Shown one piece after another: positions 33,607 to 41,892 of a DNA stretch of 64,000 nucleotides. Positions within the stretch are counted from its first letter, which is position 1. Every line of letters starts with the position of its first letter. This DNA comes from Spirochaetia bacterium. GTDB taxonomy: Bacteria > Spirochaetota > Spirochaetia > CAKZLE01. Both the position numbers and the translations under genes were made by a program. The stretch covers positions 2,432,001-2,496,000 of the forward strand of contig OY782041.1 of assembly GCA_963677595.1 (NCBI GenBank), read 5' to 3'. Under the pieces are notes generated by a model. It was not told where the DNA came from. It did no database searches and worked only from the letters and a program-made list of their open reading frames with translations.

Positions 33607-34989
33607 ATGAAGAAAGACAGATTCTTGTTGGTCTTGGTAGCTGTGTTCATGATGGTTACCTTGTCCCTCTTCGCTGGCGGCGCCCAGGAAGAGACCACGA
33701 CAACACAGGTTTCAACTGCTCCCAGAGAGTTGATGGAGTACAATCTGATTGCTGGAAAACCGTTTGCCGGCCAGACCGTGAAAGTCCTGTGTACTTCCGG
33801 ATCTATCCCGCAGTTCCTGGCTATCAAGCAGCAGGTCGATGAGTTCACCGAACTCACCGGTATTAACGTACAGTGGGATTACACCGTATGGGATGCTTGG
33901 CAGGAGAAATTCATCGCTGAAGCCACAACCGGCGGCGGTAACTACGATATCCTCACCTACATGGACTCCTATGTCGTTGGTGTTCGTAACTATCTCGAAC
34001 CACTTGATGACCTGATCGCACGAGACGGTATCAACATGGATGATTATGCTCCCGGCTTCATCGACATGGTTAAGATGGGCACCGATGAGGTACGTGGTAT
34101 CCCGTTCCGCGGACATGCGAACCTCCTGTATTACAACAAGACCGTATTCGACGAACTTGGCCTTACTCCTCCCAAGACCTGGGATGAACTGGTATCGACT
34201 GCGAAGATCATCGAGGAGAAGACCGGTATGAAGGGTCTAGCCCAGCCGTACGGCGGTTCTTCAGGCCAGAACCTCATGAACTGGCTCGGCATGCTCTGGA
34301 GCAACGGCTCAGTTATCTTCGACGCGAACAACAAGCCGATCTTCAACAATGCTGCAGGCCTCGAGGCTACCGAGAAATACGTAGGGTTCATCACGACCGA
34401 CAAGATCGTGGCTCCCGGTTCGATCACCTTCGGCGAGGGTGATGCGAACAATGAAGTGCTCCAGGGCCGTGCAGCGATGAACATCTGCTGGTCATGGGTC
34501 TACACGAAATACTTCAACCCTGCACAGGCAATCCCTGAAGTGCTCGGCAACGTGGCTCTTACCACCGTTCCGTCATTCCCCGGAAAGCCCTCCTACACCT
34601 TCTCCACCAGCCTTGGTGCCAGTATCTCAGTCGACTCAAAGCGCAAGGATGCAGCTTGGGAATACATGAAGTACTTCACCTCAAAGGAGAAAGAACGAGA
34701 GTACGTCATCGACAAGTCTGATCCAGCTACGGCTAACGTCATCACCATGCATTATGAGAACATGCTCGATCCTGAGGTGAACGCTGCGAACAACGGGCTC
34801 CAGAAGATGGTCTACGAAGGACTCAAGACCTCCAAGGGCCTCCCTGCGATCCCCGAATGGCTGCAGATCCAGTCGATCCTCGAGGTCGCCATGAACAAGA
34901 TGGCTTCAGGCGCAAATGTGAAATCGACACTCGACGCTGCTGCTGTTGATGTCGAGGCTGTCATGAAGCGAGCCGGCTACTATAAGTAG
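33607..34989 (+). CDS. Carbohydrate (CUT1-type) ABC transporter solute-binding protein
   Basis: Signal peptide ending LFAGGAQE, LYYNKTVF, PPKTWDEL, KDAAWEYMKY. Confidence 0.88.
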   Translation: MKKDRFLLVLVAVFMMVTLSLFAGGAQEETTTTQVSTAPRELMEYNLIAGKPFAGQTVKVLCTSGSIPQFLAIKQQVDEFTELTGINVQWDYTVWDAWQEKFIAEATTGGGNYDILTYMDSYVVGVRNYLEPLDDLIARDGINMDDYAPGFIDMVKMGTDEVRGIPFRGHANLLYYNKTVFDELGLTPPKTWDELVSTAKIIEEKTGMKGLAQPYGGSSGQNLMNWLGMLWSNGSVIFDANNKPIFNNAAGLEATEKYVGFITTDKIVAPGSITFGEGDANNEVLQGRAAMNICWSWVYTKYFNPAQAIPEVLGNVALTTVPSFPGKPSYTFSTSLGASISVDSKRKDAAWEYMKYFTSKEKEREYVIDKSDPATANVITMHYENMLDPEVNAANNGLQKMVYEGLKTSKGLPAIPEWLQIQSILEVAMNKMASGANVKSTLDAAAVDVEAVMKRAGYYK

Positions 34990-34999
34990 GTCGAACGAC

Positions 35000-35096
35000 C
35001 GGGCAGCGATGAGTGCGACTTCAGCGCTGCCCGCTATGTGTGATACCATGTCTGAGTCACCTGCACCGGCAGGGAAACCTGCCGGTGGGCGACTCA
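35000..35096 (+). other. Two strong hairpins after SBP gene (mRNA stabiliser/partial terminator)
   Basis: CGGGCAGCG..CGCTGCCCG and TGAGTC..CACCGGCAGG-GAAA-CCTGCCGGTG..GACTCA. Confidence 0.5.
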
Positions 35097-35120
35097 ATAC
35101 AAGTCTTTAGGAGCTGAATC

Positions 35121-35999
35121 GTGAAAGGCGGACACAAAAAACGAAAACTGGTGCTGCTGATACCTGCACTTATCGTGATTGCTATTACATCAACCTATCC
35201 CCTGATCTATGCATTCTGGCTGGGATCTCACCAGTGGCTGATCTCCCAGTCGCCGGTCATGCAGGGGTTCGTAGGACTGGAGAACTTCATTCGGGCATTG
35301 ACGGATTCCAACTTCCTGATGGTTGCGAAGACCAGCTTTCTCTACACCCTTATATCGGTCGTCATGTCTGTCGTGATCGGCTTGGCGATCGCCATTGCCC
35401 TGCAGAAGCCGGGCGTCCTCACGACCCTGACGAAGACCCTGCTCATCTTCCCGTTCGCTATCAGCCCGGCACTGAAGGGATATACCTTCAGGTACATGCT
35501 GCACCCTGAGAGCGGGATCCTCGACCGGTTCTTCAATTTTCTCATCCCGGCCACTGACAACCTGATATGGCTGGGGCATACCGGCTGGGCACTCTTCTGG
35601 CTGGCGATGACCGAGGTCTGGGGCTGGGCCCCCCTGGTCGCACTCATGTTCGTGGGAGCCTTGGGCTCTATATCGACATCGATCTTCGAGGCAGCCAAGC
35701 TTGACGGTACGAACAACGTACAGCTGTTCATCCATGTCACGCTCCCGCTGTTGCTCCCGGTAGTCATGACCATCACCCTGCTGAGGACGATCTTCTCGCT
35801 GAAGATGTTCGACCAGGTAGTCACCATGACCAATGGCGGTCCTGGTGCATCGACGCAGACGTTCAACTACCTGATCTACCAGACCGGGTTCAGGTTCATG
35901 GATATGGGCTATGCAGCCGCGCTGGCTGCGATCCTGATCGTGATCATGGCTATCTTCGCGTCCTTCTATACAAAATCACTGATCAGGGAGGGCGTGTAG
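35121..35999 (+). CDS. Sugar ABC transporter permease (MalF-like)
   Basis: FVGLENF, EAA loop EAAKLDG, TNGGPG, GYAAA. Confidence 0.92.
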   Translation: MKGGHKKRKLVLLIPALIVIAITSTYPLIYAFWLGSHQWLISQSPVMQGFVGLENFIRALTDSNFLMVAKTSFLYTLISVVMSVVIGLAIAIALQKPGVLTTLTKTLLIFPFAISPALKGYTFRYMLHPESGILDRFFNFLIPATDNLIWLGHTGWALFWLAMTEVWGWAPLVALMFVGALGSISTSIFEAAKLDGTNNVQLFIHVTLPLLLPVVMTITLLRTIFSLKMFDQVVTMTNGGPGASTQTFNYLIYQTGFRFMDMGYAAALAAILIVIMAIFASFYTKSLIREGV

Positions 36000-36000
36000 G

Positions 36001-40086: not shown

Positions 40087-40148
40087 CGTCCTGTTTCGAT
40101 CCCCGAATGACGCATGTTGAGACGAGGGAATTGAGAGGAGAGGGAAGC

Positions 40149-40664
40149 ATGGAACAAGAAGCAAGGAAGAAAGAGGTCATCGAGCTCGAGAAGATCGTGG
40201 GTGACGCTGATTTCAAGGACGCCCGACAGGTGGAACGATTCTTCGAGGCGTATACCAAGCTGATCTGGAACCACCGCCAGATCGGGCTGATCTATGACCA
40301 TTATACCGATACCACCATCATCCATGGTGAGAACGGGAAGGATATGCCCGGCATCGCGTTGGTCGTTGCCCATACCAGTGAACGGATCCAGTCGATGCCG
40401 GACATAAAGCTCAACTTTATCGGGATCTGGGCTCACCAGGTGAGCGAGACCGAGTACAAGTTCATCCAGATCACCTATCCTGAGGGGACCTTCACAGGAC
40501 CGAGCCTCTACGGCCCGCCGACGGACAAGGAACTGAACTATGACAACATCATGAACATGTGCGAGTGCCTGGTGCGGAAGATCGACGGGGTCTGGAAGAT
40601 CGTCGAGGAGTGGAACCTCCTCGGGTATGCCGACTTCTTCACCGCCGGCAATAATCAGGAGTGA
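40149..40664 (+). CDS. SnoaL/NTF2-like (ester cyclase-like) protein, paralog 3
   Basis: TKLIWNH, HGENG, TFTGPSLYGPPT, WKIVEEW; ATG 40149. Confidence 0.7.
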   Translation: MEQEARKKEVIELEKIVGDADFKDARQVERFFEAYTKLIWNHRQIGLIYDHYTDTTIIHGENGKDMPGIALVVAHTSERIQSMPDIKLNFIGIWAHQVSETEYKFIQITYPEGTFTGPSLYGPPTDKELNYDNIMNMCECLVRKIDGVWKIVEEWNLLGYADFFTAGNNQE

Positions 40665-40814
40665 TCCTGGCCAGGCACCAGAGATGGAGGCCTGTATCAG
40701 GGAGGGGAGGACCTTTTCGGATACAGGCTGTTTCGTCCCTGTCGGTTCCTGGGGTGCCGGGGAGCGGCGGAAGAGAACGCACACAGGGGGACTGTGTCCG
40801 GCGTGCCGGCTCAG

Positions 40815-40843
40815 TTGACTACCTTGGGCTGTTCAACTATACT
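40815..40843 (+). promoter_or_regulatory. Sigma70 promoter of LacI regulator (probably leaderless transcript)
   Basis: TTGACT-N17-TATACT ending 8 nt before ATG; no SD. Confidence 0.65.
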
Positions 40844-40851
40844 TTTCCAAT

Positions 40852-41892
40852 ATGGCAAAGAAGGTAAGACTACAGGATATCGCGGCTGAAGTAGGGGTCT
40901 CCCCCACGACAGTGTCGCAGGCGCTCTCACGCAAGGGTCGGGTCTCGAACGAGACCATCGAGATGGTCCAGAAGACCGCCGAACGGCTCGGGTATACCCG
41001 GGGCCTCGAGAGTTCCGTGAAGACTGTAGGACTCCTGTTCAGCATCGAGCAGAACTGGGCGTACCTCTGGGTCTTCATCCAGGTCTTCATCGAGAAGCTG
41101 GGAAAGGCCCTCAACAGCTTCGGGATCAACCTCGTCATCGTGCCGATCCATTCGGAGAAGCCGGAGCAGGACCTGCTCAGGCAGCTCAAGGCGATCGGGG
41201 CGAAGGCACTGGTCACCCTGCACCTTGAGGATGAGCACCTCCTGGAATTCCTGTCAGAGAACGGGATCCCCATCCTGGTCGTCATGAACAACAAGTACCA
41301 GGACCGGTATCTCTCCGTCTGCAATGATGACTTCCAGGGTGCCTATGATGCCGTCAAGTACCTGATCGACTACGGGCATGCCCGGATAGCGTACCTCGGT
41401 ACCGAGCACCCCGCGACCGTGGGGATGGGGAATGACCGATTCATCGGGGCCAGGAAGGCTCTTGAGGATGCCGGGCTGGAACTTCCCGACGAGTTCGTCC
41501 TCTATTTCGAGAACTACTATGATATCCACACCTTGGAGAAGGGCCTGCATAAACTGCTTGACCGGGATGACCGCCCGACTGGACTCTACTGCCTGCATGA
41601 CTACCTCGCCGAGAAGGTCTATGCTGCCCTGATGAGACTTGGCTACTCCGTACCCGGTGACATCTCGATCATCACTGCCGGTGACTCCTTCGATTACTCC
41701 CAGTTCGAGGTGCTGCAGATCACGACCATGCGCTCACAGACCGACCAGATGGGGACCGTTGCCGCAGACATGCTCAACCGGCTGATCAACTACCATGACT
41801 CCTCGCAGATCAACATTGGGATCAAGATCCGCCAGCAGCTCATGGACCGGGGTTCCTGCCGGGACCTGCGTGATGCCGGGGCTTCCCTGTAG
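40852..41892 (+). CDS. LacI-family transcriptional regulator
   Basis: LQDIAAEVGVSPTTVSQAL HTH, VPGDISI, RGSC C-terminus. Confidence 0.92.
   Translation: MAKKVRLQDIAAEVGVSPTTVSQALSRKGRVSNETIEMVQKTAERLGYTRGLESSVKTVGLLFSIEQNWAYLWVFIQVFIEKLGKALNSFGINLVIVPIHSEKPEQDLLRQLKAIGAKALVTLHLEDEHLLEFLSENGIPILVVMNNKYQDRYLSVCNDDFQGAYDAVKYLIDYGHARIAYLGTEHPATVGMGNDRFIGARKALEDAGLELPDEFVLYFENYYDIHTLEKGLHKLLDRDDRPTGLYCLHDYLAEKVYAALMRLGYSVPGDISIITAGDSFDYSQFEVLQITTMRSQTDQMGTVAADMLNRLINYHDSSQINIGIKIRQQLMDRGSCRDLRDAGASL

What the first reader, a model, noticed from the sequence alone, without database searches (positions are those of the whole stretch)
33607..41892. Self-contained catabolic cluster for an unknown substrate: CUT1 ABC importer, amidase, HisD/HpsN-like dehydrogenase, three SnoaL-like proteins, LacI
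Seen: nine co-oriented genes between an IS/rrn locus and the housekeeping rny operon, flanked by AT-rich spacers. The enzyme set has no kinase, glycosidase, aldolase or isomerase, which are the usual partners of sugar ABC importers. Established: nitrilase-family enzymes cleave C-N bonds; HisD-fold enzymes carry out 4-electron NAD-dependent oxidation of an alcohol to an acid; SnoaL/NTF2 folds catalyse cofactor-free cyclisation, hydrolysis or ring opening. Inference: a pathway for a polyhydroxylated, N-containing and perhaps cyclic compound (e.g. an amino-alcohol, an N-acyl or amide sugar derivative, or a sulfo-sugar relative). I do not recognise it as any described pathway.
Basis: partly seen in the sequence, partly recalled or inferred. 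Interest (0 to 1): 0.78.

Follow-up and report, generated by a model that had tools for sequence, protein, structure and literature searches.

The report
Likely fungal-sunscreen side-chain breakdown operon
This is a real, conserved uptake-and-breakdown gene set that matches no pathway I could find described; its gene partners suggest it likely imports a mycosporine sunscreen molecule of fungi and cyanobacteria, cuts off its amino-alcohol side chain and would turn that into glutamate.

Summary
The nine genes are real and conserved: same order in two other spirochaete loci, and rearranged with the same core (HisD-like + SnoaL + nitrilase) in Firmicutes. The cluster is not self-contained: it has no ABC ATPase, and related SnoaL and cupin/esterase/aldolase genes lie elsewhere in the genome. 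The dehydrogenase is neither HisD nor HpsN: it lacks HpsN's sulfonate-binding His126 but keeps the zinc and catalytic residues. The SnoaL proteins are a split form of a large, uncharacterised 'ester cyclase' family; a Sno3:Sno2 heterodimer is predicted. In that family a second HisD paralogue travels with an amidase (7 of 8 loci, against 1 of 25 without it), and the amidase was recruited from two folds. The usual companion enzymes fit, on paper, breakdown of the mycosporine ring (4-deoxygadusol) to pyruvate and oxaloacetate. My best reading is a module for mycosporine-glutaminol: SnoaL frees glutaminol, the amidase and dehydrogenase give glutamate. The substrate is inferred, not shown (about 35-40%). 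Ten literature searches found no description.

The parts
33607..34989 (+). CUT1 solute-binding protein, 460 aa
   Evidence: PF01547 E 1e-42; 75-84% to L002/L043, 53% to L003; 40% to the Deinococcus SBP of L134, at most 27% to five other SnoaL-cluster SBPs
35000..35087 (+). two inverted repeats after the SBP gene (35000-35033, 35064-35087); possible mRNA-stabilising hairpins (inferred)
35121..35999 (+). ABC permease 1
   Evidence: PF00528
36001..36834 (+). ABC permease 2
   Evidence: PF00528; 1-nt gap
36837..37634 (+). nitrilase-family amidase, 265 aa, Glu-Lys-Cys triad present
   Evidence: PF00795; E47, K117, C149 invariant in 8 cluster amidases
37708..38985 (+). HisD-family Zn/NAD dehydrogenase, neither HisD nor HpsN (motif GRYPI)
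   Evidence: Q250, H253, E318, H319, D352, H411 invariant, K353 kept
39013..39540 (+). Sno1, SnoaL-like, CEC subtype (predicted catalytic subunit)
39547..40086 (+). Sno2, SnoaL-like, non-CEC subtype (predicted partner subunit); probable start 39565
   Evidence: PF07366/PF12680; model and fold search
40107..40664 (+). Sno3, SnoaL-like, CEC subtype; probable start 40149
   Evidence: 48% to Sno1
40815..40843 (+). promoter-like site TTGACT-17-TATACT, 8 nt before the lacI ATG; possible leaderless transcript (inferred)
   Evidence: 9 sites in the region against 5.5 +/- 2.5 in shuffles, so weak
40852..41892 (+). LacI-family regulator
   Evidence: PF00356 + PF13377; 60-78% in L001/L002

Best explanation
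The cluster likely imports an amide- and amino-alcohol-bearing mycosporine, most plausibly mycosporine-glutaminol, and would convert its side chain to glutamate. Steps: (1) SBP and permeases import it with an ATPase encoded elsewhere (importer shown; ligand inferred). (2) Sno1:Sno2 and Sno3:Sno2 heterodimers, split equivalents of fused two-domain 'ester cyclases', would hydrolyse the ring C-N bond, freeing 4-deoxygadusol and glutaminol (Sno3:Sno2 dimer predicted; chemistry inferred). (3) The nitrilase would hydrolyse the amide to 4-amino-5-hydroxypentanoate and ammonia (family and triad shown; substrate inferred). (4) The HisD paralogue would oxidise CH2OH to COOH with 2 NAD+, giving glutamate (family chemistry known; substrate inferred; steps 3 and 4 may be swapped). 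(5) LacI likely regulates it. The ring would be excreted or handled by genes elsewhere.
For: All 8 loci with this dehydrogenase clade (70% identity or more) carry SnoaL and nitrilase genes; 0 of 77 other HisD loci do. Among 33 loci found with SnoaL queries, an amidase is present in 7 of 8 with a second-type HisD and 1 of 25 without (nominal p 1e-5, inflated by kinship and hand-picking). The amidase is a nitrilase of three divergent groups (23-43% to each other) or an amidase-signature enzyme, which points to repeated recruitment. Seven clusters hold two HisD paralogues from different clades, so two alcohol oxidations are needed. HisD-family enzymes oxidise 2-amino alcohols (cysteinolate to cysteate, PMC12814064). 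Mycosporine-glutaminol is 4-deoxygadusol plus glutaminol (PMC10057719). Sister-clade genes without SnoaL sit near oxoprolinase, hemB/class-III aminotransferase, gltB/glnA or gabT genes. The core companions fit ring breakdown: metal cupin, esterase (4UHC, E 7e-42), aldolase (3NOJ, E 5e-4). Bacterial release of 4-deoxygadusol from MAAs is reported (PMC3083659), and Vibrio pelagius has four SnoaL genes plus an importer without HisD or cupin nearby. Sno3:Sno2 score 0.81, best control 0.00; mark reached by 116 of 157 solved and 2 of 215 mismatched pairs; runs agree on at least 90% of contacts, partner pLDDT at least 90.
Against: No ligand, expression or enzyme data. No SnoaL-family enaminone hydrolase is known to me. 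The window's genome and five relatives have no core-type HisD, yet three of them carry the cupin/esterase pair, so this enzyme could act on the ring instead. Exceptions: L142 has a second-type HisD with no amidase found; L133 has an amidase without it; in L162 the amidase lies beside the core HisD. Second-type HisDs are not one supported clade (SH-aLRT 92-94; the Deinococcus ones fall elsewhere). The aldolase and cupin hits are weak. No glucosidase for the common glucoside form. Hosts appear to be anaerobes, not obvious consumers of fungal sunscreens. A glutamate skeleton makes a larger zinc chelate than histidinol or DHPS (inference).
Confidence: 0.38

Rival explanations
1. Same mycosporine family, other division of labour: the dehydrogenase oxidises the hydroxymethyl group of the ring-derived diol in place of the missing core HisD, and the amidase acts on another amide-bearing mycosporine or intermediate.
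For: Six genomes with the clade have only HisD plus this paralogue; three have the cupin/esterase pair; Lys353 is kept; Priestia L160 has one HisD beside the core genes.
Against: Where both paralogues occur, the core-linked ones form a separate clade (SH-aLRT 99); the window gene sits with the amidase in 8 of 8 loci and never with cupin or SDR.
Confidence: 0.15
2. The substrate is not a mycosporine but another N-containing hydroxylated small molecule (aminocyclitol, Amadori or opine-like conjugate, polyhydroxyalkyl N-heterocycle), opened by the SnoaL proteins, de-amidated and oxidised at a terminal alcohol.
For: No direct substrate evidence exists. Anaerobe SnoaL clusters carry IolB/KduI, creatininase, M19 peptidase, Zn-ADH and HpcH genes that suit cyclitols or sugar acids in general. 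Best SBP structure match is a sugar/polyol binder (5IAI, E 1e-30; its ligand ribitol is recalled).
Against: I found no other compound class that explains cupin + esterase + CHA-type aldolase + HisD + MetE-like together with the marine abundance of the family; this is an argument from fit only.
Confidence: 0.37
3. A sulfonate pathway: an N-acyl-cysteinolate or DHPS relative is de-acylated and oxidised by an HpsN-type enzyme.
For: Best PDB hit is HpsN (8V35, E 5e-103); Lys353 kept; JGI labels clade members sulfopropanediol 3-dehydrogenase; the family is promiscuous (PMC11131964).
Against: His126 of the GRY[AS]H motif is Ile (PMC11382572); one clade with two HpsN-context proteins rejected, p-AU 0.0013; no comD, comE, cuyB or tauA hits in the genome or in 15 cluster loci (suyAB, xsc and islA not searched).
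Confidence: 0.07
4. A chance assembly beside an insertion sequence, or a biosynthetic cluster.
For: An IS1634 lies upstream; two genomes of the same genus lack the dehydrogenase; SnoaL folds are best known from biosynthesis.
Against: Gene order conserved in L002 and L043 without the IS; same core in another phylum with a different transporter; importer plus repressor, no synthases.
Confidence: 0.03

Closest known systems
HpsN, R-DHPS 3-dehydrogenase and L-cysteinolate dehydrogenase (PDB 8V35, 8WWE; PMC11382572, PMC12814064)
   Same: HisD fold, Zn ligands, Glu318/His319/Asp352/Lys353, catabolic setting with importer and repressor
   Different: His126 replaced by Ile; separate clade; SnoaL and amidase partners instead of HpsOP, SuyAB, ComDE or CuyABC
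Histidinol dehydrogenase HisD (PF00815, TIGR00069)
   Same: passes TIGR00069; catalytic residues
   Different: motif GRYPI and D-K instead of GTAPL and D-Y; the genome's true hisD lies in a his operon elsewhere, 37% identical
SnoaL/AknH/IdmH-type cyclases and other NTF2-fold enzymes (PF07366; 3KKG, 6HNN)
   Same: fold
   Different: 10-24% identity; extra N-terminal helix; two subtypes predicted to pair; catabolic setting; no characterised member found
Protocatechuate/gallate 4,5-cleavage lower pathway, CHA aldolase (PDB 3NOJ)
   Same: RraA-type aldolase in related clusters (E 5e-4); proposed common intermediate
   Different: not in the window cluster; link weak and inferred
Homarine catabolism homABCDER (PMC13236597)
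   Same: marine N-compound to glutamate
   Different: paper text has 0 mentions of SnoaL, cyclase or histidinol; different enzymes

Membership tests
HpsN | G-R-Y-A/S-H motif with His126 | tested here: not met
   GRYPI in all clade members (PMC11382572)
HpsN | Zn ligands and Glu318/His319/Asp352, Lys353 | tested here: met
HpsN | groups with HpsN in a tree | tested here: not met
   p-AU 0.0013, quick tree of 44 rows, two HpsN-context rows
HpsN | sulfonate genes nearby (hpsOP, comDE, cuyABC, suyAB) | tested here: not met
   none among the nine genes; (suyAB and xsc not searched genome-wide)
HpsN | oxidises R-DHPS or L-cysteinolate | not testable with these tools
   needs assay
biosynthetic HisD | HisD motif and his-operon setting | tested here: not met
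SnoaL-like/NTF2 fold | fold | tested here: met
   Sno2 model; Sno1 and Sno3 by 30-48% identity
SnoaL polyketide cyclases | polyketide cluster and aldol cyclisation | tested here: not met
   no PKS gene in the loci examined; activity untested
nitrilase superfamily amidase | Glu-Lys-Cys triad | tested here: met
CUT1 ABC importer | SBP, two permeases and an ATPase | tested here: inconclusive
   no ATPase in the cluster; a 58% homologue of the L003 cluster ATPase lies at G000:607926
mycosporine catabolism (proposed) | binding and turnover of a mycosporine | not testable with these tools
   inference from gene content only

The most novel reading that the evidence does not exclude
This is the side-chain module of the missing bacterial pathway for mycosporine sunscreens: split SnoaL heterodimers are a new class of cofactor-free C-N (enaminone) hydrolases, and the HisD paralogue is a glutaminol/glutamicol dehydrogenase, a third substrate class for the HisD fold, paired repeatedly with unrelated amidases from anaerobic spirochaetes to Deinococcus and Pantoea.
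Probability: 0.38. Interest if true: 0.85.

Novelty: new variant of a known kind. Interest (0 to 1): 0.64.

Why it matters
Mycosporines and MAAs are abundant sunscreens of algae, cyanobacteria and fungi. Bacterial breakdown was reported in culture decades ago (PMC3083659), but my searches found no genes. The cluster gives a small set of proteins and a simple UV assay to test this. The related SnoaL family is large (6186 clusters at E 1e-60 or better; 24 of 400 Alphaproteobacteria) and has no function. Even if the substrate guess fails, this is a conserved orphan pathway and a HisD clade that databases mislabel as hisD or hpsN.

Tried and rejected
Rfam: only rRNA and tRNA. NCBIfam: no equivalog names a substrate. 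Fold and atlas searches for Sno2: generic SnoaL/NTF2 hits, no ligand clue. AlphaFold model of the dehydrogenase failed (pLDDT 50) and was not used. No LacI operator found in the spacers. Expression data were not obtained, so co-transcription is untested. PDB search with one cupin: no hit; with a profile: weak cupin hits only. The careful tree did not finish; quick trees were used (14 of 58 rows dropped in the second as long-branch or redundant). Homodimers and Sno1:Sno2 were not modelled; the Sno3:Sno2 pass may reflect likeness to generic NTF2 dimers. Homarine, sulfonate, histidine-biosynthesis and polyketide readings were rejected. V. harveyi did not appear among the 120 listed hits. Literature searches with no description of this cluster: (open-access library only; no supplements read).
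Full report
Observation. The nine co-oriented genes are present as described, between an rRNA operon plus IS1634 and the rny region, with AT-rich spacers. Gaps of 1, 2, 73, 27 and 6 nt link permease to Sno2; lacI follows a 187-nt gap with a promoter-like site. 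There is no ATPase gene. The window lies at G000:C1:2432001-2496000; its closest named relatives are spirochaetes.

The dehydrogenase. The genome has a second HisD-family gene, 37% identical, among genes that look by eye like a his operon. The window protein's best structure match is HpsN (E 5e-103 against 4e-88 for HisD). PMC11382572 (passages read) defines HpsN by G-R-Y-A/S-H, His126 binding the sulfonate with Lys353. The window clade has GRYPI, keeps Lys353 and the zinc and catalytic residues. In quick trees it is its own clade (SH-aLRT 100), and one clade with two HpsN-context proteins is rejected (p-AU 0.0013). A protein search gave 42 clusters at E 1e-150 or better among 7999 candidates scored, several labelled sulfopropanediol dehydrogenase.

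Conservation. A genome scan gave 18 loci, 5 at 70% identity or more; a metagenome scan returned 80 of 172 relatives, 3 at 72% or more. All 8 carry SnoaL and nitrilase genes; 0 of the other 77 metagenome loci hit any other cluster gene. L003 and L041 are nearly identical, so there are about 7 distinct cases. L002 (Ca. Marispirochaeta associata) and L043 have all nine genes in the same order; L001 has six up to a contig end. Acidaminobacter loci add a creatininase-family gene and an ATPase; Eubacteriales loci use a TRAP transporter, IclR and four SnoaL genes. The SnoaL profile is rare in background: 0 of 398 other genomes of the class of G353 (2 more not scored) and 3 of 300 of the own phylum. 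Two genomes of the same genus and one of the family have a SnoaL pair but only one HisD-family match, at 38-41%, so the cluster is patchy.

The SnoaL proteins. They fall in two subtypes: Sno1 and Sno3 have invariant Gln108, Cys139, Cys141 and Glu155; Sno2 lacks the CEC motif. Both subtypes occur together in the loci aligned. The non-CEC profile scores higher than the CEC profile on the C-terminal domain of fused two-domain relatives in every case listed; on the N-terminal domain the scores are mixed. A Sno3:Sno2 complex scored 0.81 against a best control of 0.00 (mark reached by 116 of 157 solved and 2 of 215 mismatched pairs; runs agree on at least 90% of contacts, partner pLDDT at least 90). 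The interface is the usual NTF2 dimer face, so the pass may come from likeness. I infer two catalytic subunits sharing one partner.

The wider system. The two-domain relatives form a large family, with mostly marine names among the listed hits, present in 24 of 400 Alphaproteobacteria. I fetched the 20 best-scoring of these 24: 18 have a cupin, 16 an SDR, 15 a core-type HisD (K[FY]P[ML]V), 1 a second-type HisD, and 0 a nitrilase or amidase-signature gene. In 13 hand-picked plasmid loci, 7 have a second-type HisD and an amidase (Deinococcus twice with a nitrilase; Pantoea, Roseibium, Priestia, Novosphingobium, Ensifer with an amidase-signature enzyme), 1 has an amidase only, 5 have neither. Together: amidase in 7 of 8 against 1 of 25. 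The window's SBP is closest to the Deinococcus one (40%). So the window holds an 'amide plus alcohol' module of a larger system. Its genome also has a second SnoaL/ABC cluster at 2.93 Mb and a cupin-esterase-aldolase trio at 0.90 Mb, but no core-type HisD.

Substrate inference. On paper, oxidising the CH2OH of 4-deoxygadusol, cleaving its ring at the methoxy-enol bond and removing the methyl ester gives 4-carboxy-4-hydroxy-2-oxoadipate, which an aldolase splits to pyruvate and oxaloacetate (my chemistry; structures recalled). The core genes match these steps: HisD paralogue, cupin with invariant His-x-His-x3-Glu (weak dioxygenase hits), Ser-His esterase, and HpcH or RraA aldolase, whose only named structure hit is CHA aldolase (E 5e-4). 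[quoted passage not shown] A mycosporine that needs both an amidase and a second alcohol oxidation is mycosporine-glutaminol (PMC10057719, passages). PMC12814064 (part 1 of 5 read) shows the fold oxidising a 2-amino alcohol. Sister-clade contexts point to five-carbon amino compounds.

Against. Nothing here measures binding or turnover. The missing core HisD in six carrier genomes, three of which have the cupin pair, allows the enzyme to act on the ring. There are exceptions to the pairing (L133, L142), second-type HisDs are not one supported clade, and no glucosidase is present. PMC11131964 (passages) shows promiscuity in the family, so side activity on DHPS is possible.

Prior work. Ten searches found no description of the cluster; the library lacks most subscription papers and I read no supplements, where gene tables could name these genes. 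PMC13236597 and PMC12904256 were read as passages. Earlier AI notes of this scan make the same mycosporine guess for the marine core clusters; I had noted the idea before seeing them, but they are not independent support. As far as the lines shown, none names the amidase-second HisD pairing or glutaminol.

Verdict. Real, conserved, undescribed catabolic module (about 90%). Mycosporine family about 53%; glutaminol side-chain reading about 38%. Interest 0.64.

Noticed in passing
window 31653-33230: IS1634-family transposase between the rRNA operon and the cluster; three copies of a 41% relative lie elsewhere in the genome.
   Followed up: partly
L031:6200-13150 (G000:C1:2928228-2935143): Second SnoaL cluster in the same genome: CUT1 importer, two two-domain and two single-domain SnoaL genes, GntR/LacI-type regulator, no other enzyme.
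   Followed up: partly
L180:10630-13103 (G000:C1:903632-906102): Stand-alone cupin, alpha/beta hydrolase and HpcH aldolase, same order as in Pantoea and Deinococcus core modules; the cupin/hydrolase pair recurs in G351 and G355.
   Followed up: partly
L181 and L182 (G000:C1 about 2.21 and 2.75 Mb): Two paralogous TRAP clusters with creatininase-family, SDR, fucose-isomerase-like and HpcH genes; the creatininase is 70% identical to one beside a SnoaL gene in L121. Possible anaerobic ring or sugar-acid pathway.
   Followed up: partly
L035:11857-16963: Paraburkholderia caffeinilytica plasmid: sister HisD paralogue beside hemB and a class-III aminotransferase; possible 5-aminolevulinate or glutamate-semialdehyde route.
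   Followed up: no
L036:1-11269 and L163:1-10269: Rhizobial sister HisD paralogue with an XRE-cupin-type neighbour beside hydantoinase/oxoprolinase or gltB/glnA; possible pyroglutaminol use.
   Followed up: no
L135:1078-16112: Vibrio pelagius plasmid: four two-domain SnoaL genes and an ABC importer next to sarcosine-oxidase-like genes and purU, with no HisD or cupin.
   Followed up: partly
L043 and L133: Frameshifts in several L043 genes (probably sequencing errors) and a core HisD in two pieces in one S. medicae strain.
   Followed up: no
L186:8238-11425: A same-genus genome has a 36% SBP and 45-49% permeases beside a TRAP system and transposase-like genes, without the enzymes.
   Followed up: partly
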